64,000 bases of DNA from a virus. The position numbers were made by a program, and so were the translations under genes. The stretch is from positions 32,001 through 96,000 of IMG/VR virus record IMGVR_UViG_3300049046_000039; one strand, given 5' to 3'. Of this stretch, positions 3,024 through 28,548 are shown in pieces (positions within the stretch are counted from its first letter, which is position 1; each line of letters opens with the position of its first letter). The notes below the pieces were generated by a model, which ran no database searches, was not told where the DNA came from, and saw nothing but the letters and a program-made list of their open reading frames with translations.

Positions 3024-4397
3024 TCAACCATTTTTTGCATTATTTCTCACTTGCTCAAACGTGACTTGATTTTGAAGAGCTCCGTTTCTGAAGCGAGTCT
3101 TCAATAGAGAAGGACCGACTGGAGCTCCAGTCTCTAACTTGATTGTTCTATACTCGTCACCTACTTTAATAAGGTCGAGCATTCCGCGCTTAGACTTCTT
3201 GCCCGGGTCGGTAATCGGGTCCTTATATACGTCTCTCCATTCGCCGTCGACGCAGATCGCCGAGCACTTCATTGCAAACTTCAGAGTATCACGATTGACC
3301 TGCTGAAGCAGGGCGCCACCTTGACCAAAGGTAACATTGTCTGCACTATAGTTAGCCATCTCGAGAGAGTACAGAATAGACCTGATGCTAGAGTGGTCGA
3401 TTCCGTCGCCTTGGATGACTCTTACATTATTGAGGACTCTAAACCCTTTATCATTGACAGTGTGACCGAAGTACTTGTCAAGGATTTGAACGCACTTGGT
3501 AACGACCGCAGCCGGGTCGCCCGAGTCGGGACGGACTACCAAAGTAGCCCCGCTCTTAAGCACCTGGTCCTTAAGGATGGTGCCCCACATCTTGCACGCT
3601 TCGAAGATACTGTAGCTGTCGCTAACACATGCGACCAAGCCACCTGGTTTTGCGTGCTTCTGTAAGATGTTGCTGTAGGCTCTAGCCTCGTTCTCTCGAC
3701 CCCAGCTAGTGATGGTAGAGTGCTCTGAAGCAGGAATGCTGAAGCCTACGATGTCTTTAGTATTGTAGTACTTTCTCGCGAAGAGAAGAGATTCGACTGT
3801 GTCGGTTCCCATAAAGTTGATGAGGTGAGCCAGGCCGCCGATGCCGGCAGACTCTAGACTCGAAACACCTCGAGCGCCGAAGTCGTGAAGCTTGAAGTCG
3901 ATTAGAGAAGGATCGCCGGTTCTCTCGAGAGCGTTGAGGATGATCTTCTTGCTATAGTAGCTGTTAGTGGCTACGGTGGTAGGATACCAGATAGCTCTGA
4001 GCAGCGCTGTCTCGAGAAAAGATACTAACCACCAGCACTTCGGGTCGGTGTTCCAGATGTCTACGAGAACATTGCTGGTTGGGAGAATAGTTCCCTCGTC
4101 TACACCCCGGATGTTGACTGGCAGGAATCCGTCGTGTTCATAGACGATGTACTCCCAGCCTTCGCGATAGAAGGGAAGTCCGTGTGCTGTAATGACTGCT
4201 TCGGCTTCGTCGATCATTTCCATTGTGACCTGGTGTGACAGATACTCCTTGAGGAACATCTGAAGTCCGAAGTATACGGTATCGTCGTACTTACCGCCGC
4301 GCGACTCAATGTAAGAGTAGACGTACTCCGTCTTGTCGGGATACTGATTCCACTGACTGTACTTGTACGAGTCGCTGTTAAGAATGATGTTTTGCAT
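3024..4397 (-). CDS. nadV: Nicotinamide phosphoribosyltransferase (NAMPT)
   Basis: DSYKYSQ, LHDFGARG, PASEHS, VVRPDSGDP, IQGDG. Confidence 0.96.
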   Translation of the reverse strand: MQNIILNSDSYKYSQWNQYPDKTEYVYSYIESRGGKYDDTVYFGLQMFLKEYLSHQVTMEMIDEAEAVITAHGLPFYREGWEYIVYEHDGFLPVNIRGVDEGTILPTSNVLVDIWNTDPKCWWLVSFLETALLRAIWYPTTVATNSYYSKKIILNALERTGDPSLIDFKLHDFGARGVSSLESAGIGGLAHLINFMGTDTVESLLFARKYYNTKDIVGFSIPASEHSTITSWGRENEARAYSNILQKHAKPGGLVACVSDSYSIFEACKMWGTILKDQVLKSGATLVVRPDSGDPAAVVTKCVQILDKYFGHTVNDKGFRVLNNVRVIQGDGIDHSSIRSILYSLEMANYSADNVTFGQGGALLQQVNRDTLKFAMKCSAICVDGEWRDVYKDPITDPGKKSKRGMLDLIKVGDEYRTIKLETGAPVGPSLLKTRFRNGALQNQVTFEQVRNNAKNG

Positions 4398-7528: not shown

Positions 7529-7546
7529 ACAAATTTTCCTTGAAAA

Positions 7547-7875
7547 GTGGTGGGATTCTGTTGCTAGGTTCCCACCGGACCCCAGGACTCACTGCTTAGG
7601 CAGCGAGCGCAAGGACATTGTTGTCGTTTGCGGTTATTTTGTGTGGGCCTTAGCGTGGACCCAAACGATCTTCTCAGTCTAGCCTTCAGCGACCATCGAT
7701 CCTAGTTCGGCCCCATCAGAAGCAGTGGTTGGAAGTCTCTTCATACCAACTTTCATTAAGATCGTCTATAGCCAACCTTAAGACCGTCACTGCTTCTGGT
7801 GGAGCCGCCGGGTACTGCCCCCGGGTCTGATCTCCTATCGTTCAACTTCTGGCATATCTCTATGCCGCGAAGATA
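7547..7875 (-). ncRNA. ssrA: Two-piece (circularly permuted) tmRNA, tag (A)ANDNNVLALAA
   Basis: Acceptor piece ends GGCTCCACCA at 7797; intervening segment 7715-7796; coding piece starts GGGGCC at 7714; tag frame 7631-7596. Outer ends approximate. Confidence 0.93.
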
Positions 7876-7878
7876 GAG

Positions 7879-7909
7879 TATTTATAACATAGCTTGACTA
7901 AAATGTCAA
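7879..7909 (-). promoter_or_regulatory. Overlapping sigma70-type and T4 late promoters for tmRNA
   Basis: TTGACA at 7909-7904; TATAAATA at 7886-7879. Confidence 0.75.
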
Positions 7910-8217
7910 GGCCTTTTTTTGCGTCTCTTAATCATAGTCAAGAGCTTGTTCTCAACCTTAGACTTCTTGTTGTTGCAACCTGCGCAGATAAGCTGCCAGT
8001 TGTCTTCTTCGTCTGGTCCACCAAGACACTGAGCCACCATGTGGTCTACACTAGCCTGAAGCGCCCAAGGCTTCTCTTCGGAGTGCTCGATGTGCATCTC
8101 CTGCTCGCATATCCAGCAAGTCTTGTTCTTACGCCATTGGGTCATCTTCCACTGAAACTGTGGATACATCTTTTGCATACGCCTAGCGTGGCCGGCGTTC
8201 TCGTATACGATAGGCAT
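7906..8217 (-). CDS. HNH endonuclease
   Basis: CWIC...SVDH...GG...N.QLIC..CNNKK. Confidence 0.88.
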   Translation of the reverse strand: MPIVYENAGHARRMQKMYPQFQWKMTQWRKNKTCWICEQEMHIEHSEEKPWALQASVDHMVAQCLGGPDEEDNWQLICAGCNNKKSKVENKLLTMIKRRKKRP

Positions 8218-22233: not shown

Positions 22234-23391
22234 TCAAACAATAATGTGAGGAACGAATTTTGCAGTATTGCTAGTAATGAGGCCGTCCTCACGAATGCCC
22301 ATACCTACTGCAGCACCGTCGACCGACCAGACGCCGAGTACGGGATACTTACCACTGAACTCAGGAAGAGAGTAGCGCTCTTGATAGACGTAGCCGTCAG
22401 AACCGTACTCGCCACCGGTCGCGCTAAGAGTCTTACCGAACTGGTCCTTGACAAGGATGTTCGAACCTTCGCGAGCCAGAATAGGCTTCGAGACGTATCC
22501 GCTGGAGAAGTCACGATTGTTGACCGGAACTTCGAAGCTTGCGGCAAGGAGGTTCTTATGATTTGGGAACATCTTCCACAGAATCGGAAGAATCGCCTTG
22601 TTAGACCAGATCATCTTCCAGACAGGTTCGATCCACGTGGTGATGTCGGCTGAAGCGAGAATGTTGTTAGCGAACTTCTCGTTGACCATCCACTCCCAAG
22701 GATAGAGATGCTGAATCGTCGACATATGGTAATTGTCGAGATCAACGAAAGCTTCGCCATCCCAACCGATGTCGTTGATCAGAATACCGTGACTGATGAT
22801 GCCGGCTTCTTCTGCCATATCTCGCATGTAGGAGACATTGACGGCATCTTCACCGGCACCATCGTCGGCGTGAGTAAACCAGACGTGCTTCTCAGGAAGC
22901 AGAGGAGCGATGTACTTCCAGCGCTCGACGATAGCTTCGTGAATGCCATTGAACTGATCCACGCCCTCGCCGAACATGTCGTTCTTCCAGTGCCATTGGA
23001 CTACCGAAGCTTCGAGAAGACTGGTCGGAGTGTCGCAGTTGAACTCGAACATCTTGGGGTCGGTGCGACCGTCATAACCAAAGTCGAAGCGACCGTAGTT
23101 AAGAGCCGGTGGCTCGCTATCCCAAGTGTCGATAATGTACTGGTGGAAGTGAGGAGGAATCCCAAACTGGTTGAGGATGTGGTAGTTAGAGACGATATAG
23201 TCTCCAGCTACAATCATCATCTTGTAGCAGTTGTTAGCCGCTTCCTCAATTCTCTCGATGTCTGAAGACGAGAATGCGTAGTATGCGTCCTCGTTCCAGT
23301 AAGGTTCGGCCGAAGCACTGTGCCAGAGAAGACCCTGACCCTCGACGATCGCCTTCCAATTGTGGCGAGGAGTTGAAGAGTGACGCAGCAT
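22234..23391 (-). CDS. Glutathionylspermidine synthase-like ATP-grasp protein (YgiC family)
   Basis: YGRFD, EFNCDTPTSLLEA, YPWEWM, SNKAILP, REGSN. Confidence 0.95.
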   Translation of the reverse strand: MLRHSSTPRHNWKAIVEGQGLLWHSASAEPYWNEDAYYAFSSSDIERIEEAANNCYKMMIVAGDYIVSNYHILNQFGIPPHFHQYIIDTWDSEPPALNYGRFDFGYDGRTDPKMFEFNCDTPTSLLEASVVQWHWKNDMFGEGVDQFNGIHEAIVERWKYIAPLLPEKHVWFTHADDGAGEDAVNVSYMRDMAEEAGIISHGILINDIGWDGEAFVDLDNYHMSTIQHLYPWEWMVNEKFANNILASADITTWIEPVWKMIWSNKAILPILWKMFPNHKNLLAASFEVPVNNRDFSSGYVSKPILAREGSNILVKDQFGKTLSATGGEYGSDGYVYQERYSLPEFSGKYPVLGVWSVDGAAVGMGIREDGLITSNTAKFVPHIIV

Positions 23392-23823: not shown

Positions 23824-24507
23824 TTAGTACTGGTCGAACTTAAGCAAATTATATCCTCTTAGCAAGCCGCGCTTATGTTCTTCCAGAGGATATACTCCAA
23901 TCGAAGTCTTTTGATTTCCGATGTCCGGTTCTCTAAACACTACGTATGGAACTTTCATGCTCCCCAGAACTTTCTCTACTTCTTCGAGCTCGTACGCGTT
24001 ACGTACTCCGCAGCAAGTAAAGTGTAAGCCCTTAACGAGTTCTGGAGACTTTTGAGCGATGAGTGCGCCAAGTTCGAGAGCAGCGTGAGACGTCTGAACC
24101 AGCTGATACTCGTCGAAGATGTCTTGACGAGTGAAGAAGTAGGAGTACCTCCTGATCAGGAGCGCTCTATTTACGCTTAATCTAAGCGCGTGAAGCTCGG
24201 CGTGCTCTTCTTCGGTCAGAACTTCAGCAGCGTTTTGACCTAGAACAAAGTTCTTCAGACCAATGAGCATGCCGTTGTAGTTGTTGGTGATTGCGTCGAA
24301 TGGAACTCTACCGTTCGCCAGCTTGGACACCTTACTGACCGGAGGAAATGCTCGACGGAGAAGGTGAATGGCGATGTCTCTCTTATCGTCGAGAGATTCT
24401 GCACGGGAGTTGATAGCCTTTAGAAGACAGTAGTCGATCATGTCTCGCGTAGTGTTCTTCTTTTGAGAGGCGAGAGTCTTCCAGGCGGTTTTGTAATCAA
24501 AGTTCAT
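23824..24507 (-). CDS. Two-domain protein with C-terminal peptidyl-tRNA hydrolase 2 (PTH2)-like domain
   Basis: Y.F.RQD......VQ.SHAA...FREPDIGNQKTSI...P...L....LL pattern. Confidence 0.75.
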   Translation of the reverse strand: MNFDYKTAWKTLASQKKNTTRDMIDYCLLKAINSRAESLDDKRDIAIHLLRRAFPPVSKVSKLANGRVPFDAITNNYNGMLIGLKNFVLGQNAAEVLTEEEHAELHALRLSVNRALLIRRYSYFFTRQDIFDEYQLVQTSHAALELGALIAQKSPELVKGLHFTCCGVRNAYELEEVEKVLGSMKVPYVVFREPDIGNQKTSIGVYPLEEHKRGLLRGYNLLKFDQY

Positions 24508-24578
24508 TATTGAATTCCTTAATCTTGAGTAATATAACACGTAATAAAACAAATGTAAATAACATTTTTACGGTAAGA

Positions 24579-24608
24579 TTAAGGCGGGCCGGTTGAGTTC
24601 TAACGCAT
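24579..24608 (-). other. Minigene ATG CGT TAG AAC TCA ACC GGC CCG CCT TAA (M-R-amber-N-S-T-G-P-P)
   Basis: AGGAG SD and TAATG overlap with upstream ORF. Confidence 0.6.
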
Positions 24609-24859
24609 TACTCTTCTCCTGATATTGTTGCGACACCGTCAACAATTTCTACCGAGCACTTCTTGAGCTTGATAGAGCCTTTGGTGTGTGAGTTGTCTGG
24701 AGTTTCTTTTGTAGAGAAGCCGATGTTACAGTCGACATGGTCTACGTAAAACGTCTGCCCTTTTAGTTTAAGAACCCACATGGGAATCTTAGGATCGGCT
24801 AGGTGACCCTTATTGAAGTGAAATACTACTTCTTTACAGTTCTAAAAAGTCTGCTTCAT
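24608..24859 (-). CDS. 83-aa hypothetical protein with in-frame amber codon 6 (readthrough candidate; absent from ORF track)
   Basis: AAGGA SD; MKQTF*NCKEVVFHFNKGHLADPKIPMWVLK...STKETPDNSHTKGSIK...GEE*; TAG at 24844-24842. Confidence 0.75.
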
Positions 24860-25336: not shown

Positions 25337-25413
25337 TGGTGCGCGTGACGGGACTCGAACCCGTGACGTCATGATTTTAGAGATCACCGCTCTTCCAACT
25401 GAGCTACACGCAC
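25337..25413 (-). tRNA. Amber suppressor tRNA (anticodon CUA)
   Basis: Full cloverleaf; anticodon arm GTGAT-CTCTAAA-ATCAT; TTCGAGT T-loop; ACCA end. Confidence 0.92.
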
Positions 25414-25887: not shown

Positions 25888-25984
25888 CAGGCTTCAGATT
25901 TAGGTGGGAATCGAACCCACACAGATCGATTAGAAGTCGATTGCTCTACCTTTGAGCTACTGAAAGGTTTGCTGTAAGAAGCCT
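25888..25984 (-). ncRNA. CAGCAA-box RNA unit C (D arm, Arg-UCU anticodon arm, T arm; no CCA)
   Basis: AGGCTTC-TTACAGCAA...GAAGCCT; ATCGA-CTTCTAA-TCGAT; GTGGG-TTCGATT-CCCAC. Confidence 0.8.
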
Positions 25985-27096: not shown

Positions 27097-28548
27097 TTAC
27101 CTGAAGTCATACTTAGACTGCATGACAGTCTTACGCATGATACCTTCGGGAGTCATGTCGTCGTAGTTAGCGCCGAGAACGGCCTTCATGATCGCTGGCG
27201 AGAAGCCAGAGACGAGGGCAGTTCCAGTCTCGTCGAATGAAACCGGCACGTTACCGTGAGAGTTGAGGTTCCAGAAGACTACTGCCGGAGCTTCGTAACC
27301 AGCACGACGGTACTCGTTACGGATCATCTCGATTGCTCGAGGGTCGTGAGCTTTCGCGCTAGAGCTCCAGCCGCCGCCACCAGTGCCTACGCACTGGTTG
27401 AACTGCATGTCAGACATGATTAGGAGCATCGTTGGCATTTCTGCCGCAGGCACCTTACCCTTGACTGCAGTATCGAGGATGCGATGGAGCGCCTTCTCGA
27501 GGTCGGTAGACATGTTCCAAGACGATCTCGCCATGGCGTTGTATCGCTGAGACAGCGTACCCTTGACGGTCACGAACTCAGGCTCACTGGAGAAGGTAAG
27601 GAACATGTCCTTGAACTTACCAGTGTTCTTGCTCGCGCAATAGAGACCTAGAGAGATCGCTACGTCGAGACAGGTGACATCCACGCCCTTCGTACCACCG
27701 CCGGCGCGGCAGCCCATAGAACCTGAAACGTCTACCAGAGGCAGAACGTTAGCGTCGCCGATAAAGTTAGGTAGAGCGTCCCACTGAGCGTTAGCCACGG
27801 TAGAGTCACCGTATCTCACGGTCTTGATGATGTCGTAAGGGTATACGGCACCAGCGTTGACCTTGACACCCTTGTCGCCACGCTTGAGAGCTTCCTTGTA
27901 TGCAGTGAACTGCGTAGGAGCCTTCTTAGCGAAAGCCTTGGTGTAGCGAGACATAGCCAGAGAAGGAACGTGGTTGAAGTTGATAGCTTCAAACTCACGG
28001 TTACACATCTGAGTCTCGACAACTCTCGTGAGGTTCACGAGCAGCTTGCGGTACTGCTTTGGAGACATTGCCATGAAGTTGCGCAGCTCTACAGCCTTAG
28101 CGCCCTTACGTGGCATCCACTTAGCGGCCAGACCATTACCGTTCTGGAGGTTCTCCTGAATGAGAGAGAACGCTACAGACTTCACTTCCTCGGTGTTGAA
28201 CACGAGAAGGTCGTCGAAGCGGCCCAGATCAGGAACACGCGACAGAAGGTTAGTCTTGGTGAGGTAGTCAGGGTTGACTTTCTCGAGATGGAGAAGGATG
28301 TCGCGGAAGAGCTTACGCTCACCGGCGCCGCCGCGGATGTCGCGAGCCCAGAGGGCGATACGGATAGCCAGTTCGCTGTCTTCTACCAGCGCCTTGTTGA
28401 AGAGGCCGGTAACGTCCTTGCCACGCATAGCGCCGATCTGACCAAAGAGGTCTACGTTGGCGCGCATGGTTGACTTGTATGCAGCCATGCCATTCGTGGT
28501 CTTGGTTTTTACAGGAGTGTTGTTTACTGCATTCGCAAAAGTATTCAT
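27097..28548 (-). CDS. TROVE-like helical domain + vWA protein (DUF2828-type, Ro60-like architecture)
   Basis: RDIRGGAGER, GRFDDL, AAKWMPR; MIDAS DVSGSM and SDMQF; VFWNL, LVSGFSP. Confidence 0.85.
   Translation of the reverse strand: MNTFANAVNNTPVKTKTTNGMAAYKSTMRANVDLFGQIGAMRGKDVTGLFNKALVEDSELAIRIALWARDIRGGAGERKLFRDILLHLEKVNPDYLTKTNLLSRVPDLGRFDDLLVFNTEEVKSVAFSLIQENLQNGNGLAAKWMPRKGAKAVELRNFMAMSPKQYRKLLVNLTRVVETQMCNREFEAINFNHVPSLAMSRYTKAFAKKAPTQFTAYKEALKRGDKGVKVNAGAVYPYDIIKTVRYGDSTVANAQWDALPNFIGDANVLPLVDVSGSMGCRAGGGTKGVDVTCLDVAISLGLYCASKNTGKFKDMFLTFSSEPEFVTVKGTLSQRYNAMARSSWNMSTDLEKALHRILDTAVKGKVPAAEMPTMLLIMSDMQFNQCVGTGGGGWSSSAKAHDPRAIEMIRNEYRRAGYEAPAVVFWNLNSHGNVPVSFDETGTALVSGFSPAIMKAVLGANYDDMTPEGIMRKTVMQSKYDFR

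What the first reader, a model, noticed from the sequence alone, without database searches (positions are those of the whole stretch)
24579..24608. M-R-amber-NSTGPP minigene as a two-state ribosome trap
Seen: a strong AGGAG SD and TAATG coupling. Without suppression the product is fMet-Arg; with suppression it is a nonapeptide ending Gly-Pro-Pro. It ends about 70 nt before the PTH2-like start, with a TTTACA promoter in between. Inference: either state yields peptidyl-tRNA or stalled ribosomes, so it may act as a sensor or produce the hydrolase substrate.
Basis: partly seen in the sequence, partly recalled or inferred. Interest (0 to 1): 0.72.

Follow-up and report, generated by a model that had tools for sequence, protein, structure and literature searches.

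The report
Amber-gated stalling leader in phage
A nine-codon leader in a large phage reaches its ribosome-pausing Pro-Pro end only if a UAG stop at codon 3 is read through, most likely by the phage's own UAG-reading tRNA; that end pairs with the ribosome-binding site of the next gene, a peptidyl-tRNA-hydrolase-like enzyme, so it looks like a natural switch, not found in the literature searched, that reports whether stop-codon read-through is working.

Summary
The minigene is real, on the minus strand (24608..24579), exactly as described. It is not a chance ORF. The design ATG, 1-12 codons, TAG, 2-6 codons, Pro-Pro, stop recurs in 22 distinct phage loci against about 1.5 expected. It is nearly always on the gene strand and only with TAG as the inner stop. 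In 19 of 22 loci a same-strand tRNA(CUA) lies nearby.

The last Pro codon, the stop and the bases after them form the 5' arm of a hairpin. The 3' arm covers the ribosome-binding site of the next gene. This complementarity is locus-specific: cognate -12.5 against non-cognate -5.9 kcal/mol, p<5e-5.

The downstream protein has a PTH2 fold. In more distant relatives the PTH2 gene itself starts with an early in-frame TAG.

Best reading: a translational attenuator gated by amber suppression. The stall itself, and the tRNA's activity, are inferred.

The "substrate generator" idea is not.

This scan has found the same design before in at least 54 other genomes. I found no paper describing it.

Class: new variant of a known kind (arrest-peptide attenuators). 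Interest 0.8.

The parts
25337..25413 (-). Phage tRNA with anticodon CUA (amber suppressor candidate), about 730 nt upstream of the leader on the same strand
   Evidence: ARAGORN (labelled 'Pyl' by anticodon only). Rfam tRNA 59.2 bits. A same-strand tRNA(CUA) is present in 19 of 22 leader loci.
24608..24859 (-). Small gene (83 codons) with an in-frame TAG at codon 6 (24844-24842). Its stop overlaps the leader's ATG. It belongs to a large unnamed phage family here called AmbG.
   Evidence: all 48 distinct relatives have a TAG (never TAA or TGA) 1-13 codons after an ATG with a Shine-Dalgarno sequence. A tRNA(CUA) lies within 3 kb in 40 of 48.
24616..24620 (-). Shine-Dalgarno AGGAG of the leader, 7 nt before its ATG
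   Evidence: Sequence. Comparable purine-rich sites precede the leader in the relatives shown.
24579..24608 (-). Leader ORF M-R-UAG-N-S-T-G-P-P-stop
   Evidence: Conserved in L005 and L154 with only synonymous changes in the S-T-G-P-P codons.
24600..24602 (-). UAG gate codon (codon 3 of the leader), 18 nt before the hairpin arm
   Evidence: The inner stop is TAG in all 23 PP-ending mini-ORFs and never TAA or TGA.
24579..24587 (-). Pro-Pro codons (CCG CCT) and final TAA: the proposed pause site
   Evidence: Pro-Pro is kept in all relatives while the first Pro codon uses all four synonyms.
24575..24584 (-). 5' arm CCTTAATCTT (last Pro codon, stop and 4 nt)
   Evidence: Perfect 10-nt complement of 24526-24517. 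It is in the MFE of the leader-to-start segment. Duplex -13.6 kcal/mol, ranked 1 of 22.
24531..24559 (-). Promoter-like site TTTACA-17-TATATT inside the hairpin loop
   Evidence: 10 of 12 matches, TG extension. Similar sites occur in the nearest relatives, but such sites are not enriched over all loci (7 of 22 against 4.1 expected).
24517..24526 (-). 3' arm AAGATTAAGG, which contains the Shine-Dalgarno sequence of the PTH2-like gene
   Evidence: The 3' arm ends 10 nt before the start codon here; the median over loci is 9 nt.
23824..24507 (-). Gene of 227 aa: helical N-domain plus C-terminal PTH2-fold domain
   Evidence: AF2 model pLDDT 92.8. Foldseek matches archaeal and human Pth2 with probability 1.0 and target TM 0.72-0.75. 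Distant homologues reach the Pfam PF01981 threshold.

Best explanation
The minigene is a regulatory leader peptide: a translational attenuator gated by amber suppression.

A ribosome starts at the leader's own Shine-Dalgarno sequence and ATG. If RF1 wins at the UAG (codon 3), the ribosome releases fMet-Arg 18 nt short of the hairpin. The hairpin stays closed and keeps the ribosome-binding site of the PTH2-like gene paired (OFF).

If the phage's tRNA(CUA) reads the UAG, the ribosome goes on for six codons and pauses at Pro-Pro-stop. The last Pro codon then sits in the P site and the stop in the A site. The ribosome covers and unwinds the 5' arm, which frees the Shine-Dalgarno sequence some 55 nt downstream for another ribosome (ON).

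Expression of the PTH2-like enzyme therefore reports the ratio of UAG read-through to termination.

Shown: the sequence anatomy; conservation of the leader design; the exclusive use of TAG; the linkage to tRNA(CUA); the locus-specific complementarity between the leader's end and the ribosome-binding site; the PTH2 fold.

Inferred: that the tRNA is charged and suppresses; that Pro-Pro-stop pauses the ribosome on so short a chain; that unwinding raises translation.
For: Conservation:
- The design is found before every full-length PTH2-like relative fetched (window, L003, L004, L005, L085, L111, L115, L124, L154; cut in L153), at 33-54% protein identity.
- There are 22 distinct cases in 912 kb against 1.45 expected.

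Translation through the TAG:
- S-T-G-P-P is kept in the window, L005 and L154 with only third-position changes.
- The PP ending goes only with an inner TAG: 23 cases against 0 with TAA and 0 with TGA.
- The final stop is TAA or TGA, never TAG.

Linkage to the tRNA:
- A same-strand tRNA(CUA) occurs in 19 of 22 leader loci, sometimes 17-29 nt upstream.

Hairpin:
- 21 of 22 MFE folds have a long-range helix. Its 5' arm starts a median of 3 nt before the final stop and its 3' arm ends a median of 9 nt before the next start.
- Cognate duplex -12.5 against non-cognate -5.9 kcal/mol; 14 of 22 rank first; 0 of 20,000 permutations do as well.

Independent support for gating of this gene family:
- 24 distinct distant PTH2 genes carry a TAG 1-12 codons after their ATG with no other start codon for 10-40 codons.
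- One clade uses TGA instead and has a tRNA(UCA) nearby.

Genetic code and precedent:
- The genome uses the standard code: stops of 103 confident genes are TAA 67, TGA 30, TAG 6.
- C-terminal RAPP/RGPP-type Pro-Pro motifs are established arrest sequences (PMC12992588, PMC10951233).
Against: - There are no experimental data of any kind.
- The window's motif is T-G-P-P, not the robust R-A-P-P or R-G-P-P. Only 2 of the relatives have those (L111, L124).
- The nascent chain is only 9 residues long.
- Folded in a wider 131-nt context, the window's MFE prefers another structure and is not unusually stable (z -0.9).
- A promoter-like site inside the loop would give transcripts that lack the 5' arm, so gating would apply only to read-through transcripts.
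- Two loci show little or no cognate pairing between the leader's end and the ribosome-binding site: the cultured phage RHph_I1_18 (L001), which also lacks the long-range helix in its MFE fold, and L168, whose MFE helix lies off the expected sites.
- The amino acid inserted at UAG is unknown.
Confidence: 0.68

Rival explanations
1. Read-through-dependent coupling without a true arrest. Any ribosome that passes the UAG opens the hairpin in transit. Pro-Pro is kept mainly because CCN-CCU supplies the anti-Shine-Dalgarno bases, or gives only a mild delay.
For: The second Pro codon (mostly CCT) pairs with the AGG of the Shine-Dalgarno sequence. The window's T-G-P-P is not a canonical strong arrest motif.
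Against: The first Pro codon lies outside the helix in the window and uses all four synonyms across loci, which points to selection on the amino acid. The residue before Pro-Pro is nearly always K, R or G, which suggests a peptide-level constraint.
Confidence: 0.17
2. A sensor of host RF1 activity or termination efficiency rather than of the phage tRNA. Read-through would occur by near-cognate decoding when RF1 is limiting.
For: Read-through at UAG always reflects competition with RF1, so the leader necessarily reports RF1 activity too.
Against: The tight same-strand linkage to tRNA(CUA) (19 of 22). The match of a TGA gate with a tRNA(UCA) in L135.
Confidence: 0.07
3. A bar-like minigene. The two-codon ORF M-R-stop drops fMet-Arg-tRNA off the ribosome and so makes substrate for the hydrolase or depletes tRNA-Arg.
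For: A strong Shine-Dalgarno sequence followed by a two-codon ORF resembles the lambda bar minigenes (established knowledge, from memory). A peptidyl-tRNA hydrolase-like gene follows.
Against: In relatives the part before the TAG is 1-12 codons long and not Arg-specific. This reading explains neither the conserved in-frame Pro-Pro-stop nor the pairing with the ribosome-binding site.
Confidence: 0.04
4. Not a translated element. The hairpin is a terminator or a processing site for the upstream tRNA or gene, or the TAG ends a tiny ORF and ribosomes re-initiate.
For: Hairpins after tRNA or gene units are common. No protein-level evidence exists.
Against: No T-run follows the stem and no terminator was called. 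The 3' arm sits on the Shine-Dalgarno sequence. Frame, strand and TAG specificity all hold. The pattern of synonymous changes fits a translated peptide. Re-initiation would accept any stop codon.
Confidence: 0.03

Closest known systems
RAPP/RGPP-type regulatory arrest peptides (ApdA, ApdP, ApcA; RAG-P of SecM; Streptomyces RAPP/RGPP uORFs; PMC12992588, PMC10951233, PMC10987492)
   Same: A short upstream ORF ends in X-Pro-Pro close to its stop. It sits before a regulated gene, and the stalled ribosome is thought to open an occluded ribosome-binding site. Two relatives carry exact R-A-P-P and R-G-P-P.
   Different: The arrest site here lies behind an in-frame UAG, so it is reached only after stop-codon read-through. 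The peptide is far shorter (7-17 residues) and has no secretion signal. The window has T-G-P-P. The regulated gene is a PTH2-like enzyme, not a protein-localisation factor.
ermC / cat / cmlA leader-peptide translational attenuation
   Same: A ribosome paused on a short leader melts a hairpin that sequesters the Shine-Dalgarno sequence of the next gene.
   Different: The trigger there is an antibiotic bound to the ribosome. Here it is decoding of a stop codon by a suppressor tRNA.
Stop-codon-recoded phages with their own suppressor tRNAs (TAG read as Gln; 10.1101/2021.08.26.457843)
   Same: A phage-encoded tRNA(CUA) is used to make some genes translatable only after the tRNA is present.
   Different: In those phages in-frame TAGs are spread through many late genes. 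This genome keeps the standard code (TAG still ends 6 of 103 genes). It has one early TAG in one gene plus the TAG in this leader.
prfB (RF2) autoregulation
   Same: An early in-frame stop codon serves as a sensor of termination efficiency.
   Different: prfB uses a +1 frameshift at UGA to make RF2 itself. No frameshift and no release factor gene are involved here.
Synthetic UAG-in-leader switches for unnatural amino acids (reviewed in PMC6412442)
   Same: A TAG placed in a leader peptide makes expression of the downstream gene depend on an amber suppressor tRNA.
   Different: Those are engineered and act on transcription through the tna/trp leaders. This one is natural and appears to act on translation initiation.
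Lambda bar minigenes
   Same: A strong Shine-Dalgarno sequence and a two-codon ORF in the unsuppressed state of the window's leader.
   Different: The two-codon length is not conserved in relatives. The conserved parts are the TAG, the Pro-Pro-stop and the hairpin.

Membership tests
Leader-peptide translational attenuator (ermCL type) | Short upstream ORF with its own ribosome-binding site | tested here: met
   AGGAG lies 7 nt before the ATG. Purine-rich sites precede the leaders of relatives.
Leader-peptide translational attenuator (ermCL type) | Hairpin that pairs the downstream Shine-Dalgarno sequence with a segment covered by the paused ribosome | tested here: met
   A 10-nt perfect complement in the window. 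21 of 22 loci have such a helix in the MFE. Cognate against non-cognate duplex test, p<5e-5. This evidence is computational only.
Leader-peptide translational attenuator (ermCL type) | Ribosome pause at a defined codon that raises downstream translation | not testable with these tools
   Needs toeprinting and reporter assays.
RAPP/RGPP arrest peptides | C-terminal Arg-(Ala/Gly)-Pro-Pro core | tested here: not met
   The window has T-G-P-P. Among relatives, only L111 (R-A-P-P) and L124 (R-G-P-P) have the core; the others end in K/R/G/Q-P-P.
PTH2 peptidyl-tRNA hydrolase (PF01981) | PTH2 fold | tested here: met
   Foldseek matches 2zv3, 1wn2, 3erj, 1rlk, 1xty and 1q7s with probability 1.0, target TM 0.72-0.75 and rmsd 2.5-3.0 over about 110 residues.
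PTH2 peptidyl-tRNA hydrolase (PF01981) | Sequence match at the Pfam gathering score | tested here: inconclusive
   The window's protein has no Pfam hit. Of 10 distant homologues, 4 score 24-27.4 bits against a threshold of 23, and PTH2 is the top hit for all 10.
PTH2 peptidyl-tRNA hydrolase (PF01981) | Catalytic residues and hydrolase activity | not tested
   No residue-level structural alignment was available. By eye, the family keeps an R-x-D and a D-I/A-G-like motif but lacks the G-K-G-K loop. Activity needs an assay.
Stop-codon-recoded phage (TAG as sense, 'code 15') | In-frame TAGs in many genes and a gain in coding density when TAG is read as sense | tested here: not met
   There is no specific gain with TAG as sense. 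TAG ends 6 of 103 confident genes, and only one gene has an early TAG.
Lambda bar-type minigene | Two-codon ORF as the conserved functional unit | tested here: not met
   The part before the TAG is 1-12 codons long in relatives.
Amber suppressor tRNA | Cloverleaf tRNA with anticodon CUA | tested here: met
   ARAGORN and Rfam, 59.2 bits. Charging and suppression are not testable here.

The most novel reading that the evidence does not exclude
The leader is a 'monitoring substrate' for the enzyme it controls. The PTH2-like protein, through its helical N-domain, would act on the short peptidyl-tRNA held at or dropped from the Pro-Pro-stop pause, which closes a feedback loop. Together, tRNA(CUA), the early-TAG gene family, this leader, the PTH2-like gene and the phage tmRNA would form one phage-borne module. 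That module would switch the infected cell into a UAG-read-through state and buffer the resulting load of stalled ribosomes and peptidyl-tRNA.
Probability: 0.2. Interest if true: 0.92.

Novelty: new variant of a known kind. Interest (0 to 1): 0.8.

Why it matters
Many phages that use the standard code carry amber suppressor tRNAs for which no target genes are known. For phage XacN1 the authors state that they could not identify any (PMC5852040). This leader, the early-TAG gene beside it and the early-TAG PTH2 genes of relatives are concrete, conserved candidate targets.

The leader would be the first natural cis-acting sensor of stop-codon read-through that works through an arrest-type leader peptide. 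It links three fields: arrest peptides, suppressor tRNAs and ribosome rescue. It is small enough to test directly with toeprints and reporters. It also offers a ready-made natural part for circuits that depend on amber suppression.

Tried and rejected
The roughly 60 protein homologues from the large database could therefore not be placed in their DNA context. Loci came from IMG/VR, one metagenome scan and GenBank phages only.
- Genome-wide TAG recoding was rejected.
- A profile search of PDB sequences with the PTH2-like family gave only chance hits. The fold search was needed.
- The family of the neighbouring TAG-containing gene has no Pfam, PHROG or PDB sequence match. It has no convincing fold match either: Foldseek E>0.01, and VIA-align Z at most 5, a generic ferredoxin-like C-domain. 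Its function stays unknown.
- A promoter inside the hairpin loop is not a general feature (7 of 22 against 4.1 expected).
- Among three cultured phage genomes searched whole, only RHph_I1_18 has a PP leader, and its hairpin is weak.
- Seven literature searches found no description of a natural leader gated by a stop codon. The library lacks most subscription journals.
- I did not determine which amino acid the tRNA carries.

Full report
**Observation.** All genes around the finding are on the minus strand. Read that way, 24608..24579 is ATG CGT TAG AAC TCA ACC GGC CCG CCT TAA. AGGAG lies 7 nt upstream. The ATG overlaps the TAA of the upstream gene. The ORF ends 71 nt before the ATG at 24507 of a 227-aa gene. 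A promoter-like site (TTTACA, 17 nt, TATATT, with a TG extension) lies between them.

**Setting.** The window is part of a 115.8-kb IMG/VR phage record that is about 64% complete. It carries about 35 tRNA genes and an alphaproteobacterial two-piece tmRNA. Its nearest cultured relative at the DNA level is Rhizobium phage RHph_I1_18. A tRNA with anticodon CUA lies at 25413..25337 on the same strand. The genome uses the standard code. Of 103 confident genes, 67 end in TAA, 30 in TGA and 6 in TAG. Reading TAG as sense gives no specific gain.

**The upstream gene.** The ORF listed as 57 aa (24781..24608) in fact opens at ATG 24859, which has a good Shine-Dalgarno sequence, and has a TAG as codon 6. 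Its relatives are numerous: 115 in IMG/VR, of which 80 were fetched and 48 are distinct.
- In all 48 the frame has ATG, then 1-13 codons, then TAG (never TAA or TGA), then the conserved protein.
- An A follows the TAG in 44 of 48.
- A same-strand tRNA(CUA) lies within 3 kb in 40 of 48, at a median distance of 271 nt. It is the only tRNA of the locus in 30.
- The exclusive use of TAG and the tRNA linkage argue for suppression and against termination followed by re-initiation.
- The protein has no Pfam, PHROG or fold match.

**Conservation of the minigene.** The same design stands about 50-105 nt before the start of every full-length relative of the downstream gene that I could fetch, at 33-54% protein identity. 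These are L003, L004, L005, L085, L111, L115, L124 and L154, with a cut copy in L153. The design is ATG, a few codons, TAG, 2-6 codons, Pro-Pro, stop.
- In the window, L005 and L154 the five codons for S-T-G-P-P differ only at third positions. That is the signature of a translated peptide.
- A pattern scan of all 912 kb of fetched loci gave 30 matches (22 distinct), 29 of them on the gene strand. Shuffled sequence gave 1.45.
- A test that does not presuppose Pro-Pro looked at all mini-ORFs with an inner stop. Pro-Pro is the commonest ending when the inner stop is TAG on the gene strand (23 of 622). It is absent with TAA (0 of 759) and TGA (0 of 585), and found once on the other strand.
- The final stop is TAA or TGA, never TAG.
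- The residue before Pro-Pro is K, R or G in nearly all cases.
- A same-strand tRNA(CUA) is present in 19 of 22 loci, in three of them 17-29 nt upstream of the leader.

**The hairpin.** In the window, CCTTAATCTT (24584..24575: last Pro codon, stop and four bases) is the perfect complement of AAGATTAAGG (24526..24517), which holds the Shine-Dalgarno sequence of the next gene.
- Folding each leader-to-start segment gives a long-range helix in 21 of 22 loci. The 5' arm begins a median of 3 nt before the final stop, that is at the last Pro codon. The 3' arm ends a median of 9 nt before the next start codon. The UAG lies a median of 18 nt before the arm.
- The arm sequences differ between loci but match within each locus. 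The cognate duplex energy averages -12.5 kcal/mol against -5.9 for non-cognate pairs. Fourteen of 22 cognates rank first, and none of 20,000 permutations did as well.
- The geometry fits an attenuator. A ribosome ending at UAG does not reach the helix. A ribosome with the last Pro codon in the P site sits on the 5' arm.

**The downstream gene.** It has no Pfam or PDB sequence match. An AlphaFold model built from 62 homologues (pLDDT 92.8) matches archaeal and human Pth2 over residues ~118-227, with probability 1.0 and target TM 0.72-0.75. Distant homologues reach the Pfam PTH2 threshold. The N-terminal ~115 residues are helical with no match. In some relatives the two domains are separate ORFs, and the leader then precedes the N-domain ORF. 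In others the leader precedes a different small gene next to a PTH2 gene.

**Independent support for gating.** In the more distant, single-domain PTH2 genes the gate sits in the gene itself.
- Thirty distinct loci have ATG, 1-12 codons, then TAG. In 24 of them no other start codon follows for 10-40 codons.
- These include the unannotated homologue in Ralstonia phage RsoM2USA, and probably ORF364 of Xanthomonas phage XacN1. The XacN1 authors reported that they could not find targets for its two CUA tRNAs (PMC5852040).
- One clade (L133, L135) has TGA at the same place, and L135 carries a tRNA(UCA).

**Interpretation.** The best reading is a translational attenuator gated by amber suppression. 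RF1 at UAG gives OFF. Read-through by the phage tRNA brings the ribosome to Pro-Pro-stop, where a pause opens the ribosome-binding site.
- Pro-Pro motifs near a C-terminus are established arrest sequences (PMC12992588; PMC10951233). Slow termination after C-terminal proline is established knowledge, cited from memory.
- The pause, the tRNA's activity and the effect on translation are inferred.
- Caveats: the window has T-G-P-P rather than R-G/A-P-P; the peptide is very short; the wider-context fold of the window is not exceptional; and a promoter-like site in the loop, shared by the nearest relatives but not general, would give ungated transcripts.
- Why a PTH2-like enzyme should depend on read-through is open. 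Buffering the peptidyl-tRNA and stalled-ribosome load of a suppressor, or feedback on the stalled leader itself, are speculative.

**Novelty.** Seven searches of the held literature found genome-wide recoding in phages (10.1101/2021.08.26.457843) and engineered UAG-in-leader switches (PMC6412442). They found no natural leader of this kind. Earlier notes of this scan describe the same design in at least 54 other genomes. I reached the hairpin and the conservation independently before reading them, and I tested their claim of a stop-anticodon match only in one clade.

Noticed in passing
window 24608-24859 (-); relatives L005-L084: A large, unnamed phage protein family. Every member has a TAG (48 of 48, never TAA or TGA) 1-13 codons after its ATG, usually right beside a tRNA(CUA). 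There are long (~190 aa) and short (~80 aa) forms. No Pfam, PHROG or fold match was found. Gene callers would truncate or miss it.
   Followed up: partly
L179:~2484-2824 (Ralstonia phage RsoM2USA); L178:~1943-2803 (Xanthomonas phage XacN1 ORF364): The PTH2-like genes of two cultured jumbo phages appear to start ATG-x-TAG. The RsoM2USA gene is unannotated. The XacN1 start is probably annotated too far downstream. These are candidate targets of the CUA tRNAs that the XacN1 paper could not place.
   Followed up: partly
L133 and L135:2432-2455; L135:5093-5166: A PTH2-like gene gated by an early TGA instead of TAG, with a tRNA(UCA) in the same locus. The stop codon and the anticodon change together.
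   Followed up: partly
L006:~3244-3261: After the short early-TAG gene, a degenerate leader-like ORF reads M-R-TAG-T-TAG-TAA, without Pro-Pro. It is followed by a GC-rich hairpin and then the tRNA(CUA).
   Followed up: no
L023, L033, L035, L041, L001: In several relatives the 3' end of the short early-TAG gene abuts or overlaps the 5' end of the tRNA(CUA) gene.
   Followed up: no
window 7546-7913 (-); loci L029, L032, L044, L045, L052, L057, L069, L076: A phage-encoded two-piece (alpha-type) tmRNA is present in this genome. In 9 of 48 loci of the early-TAG gene family a tmRNA lies within 3 kb, often just downstream.
   Followed up: partly
window 25896-25966 (-): A tRNA found by Rfam (55.2 bits) but not by ARAGORN. 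Earlier notes of the scan describe unusual tRNA-like RNAs and a Ro60/TROVE-like gene (27097-28548) in this stretch. I did not analyse them.
   Followed up: no
window 22234-23391 (-): A phage-encoded glutathionylspermidine synthase-like gene (Pfam PF03738, E 2e-130), two genes downstream of the PTH2-like gene.
   Followed up: no
L089:~2400-2470: A variant leader before a 33%-identical PTH2-like gene: M-H-H-TAG, then five codons and Pro-Pro, but the frame runs on for 12 more codons instead of stopping.
   Followed up: no
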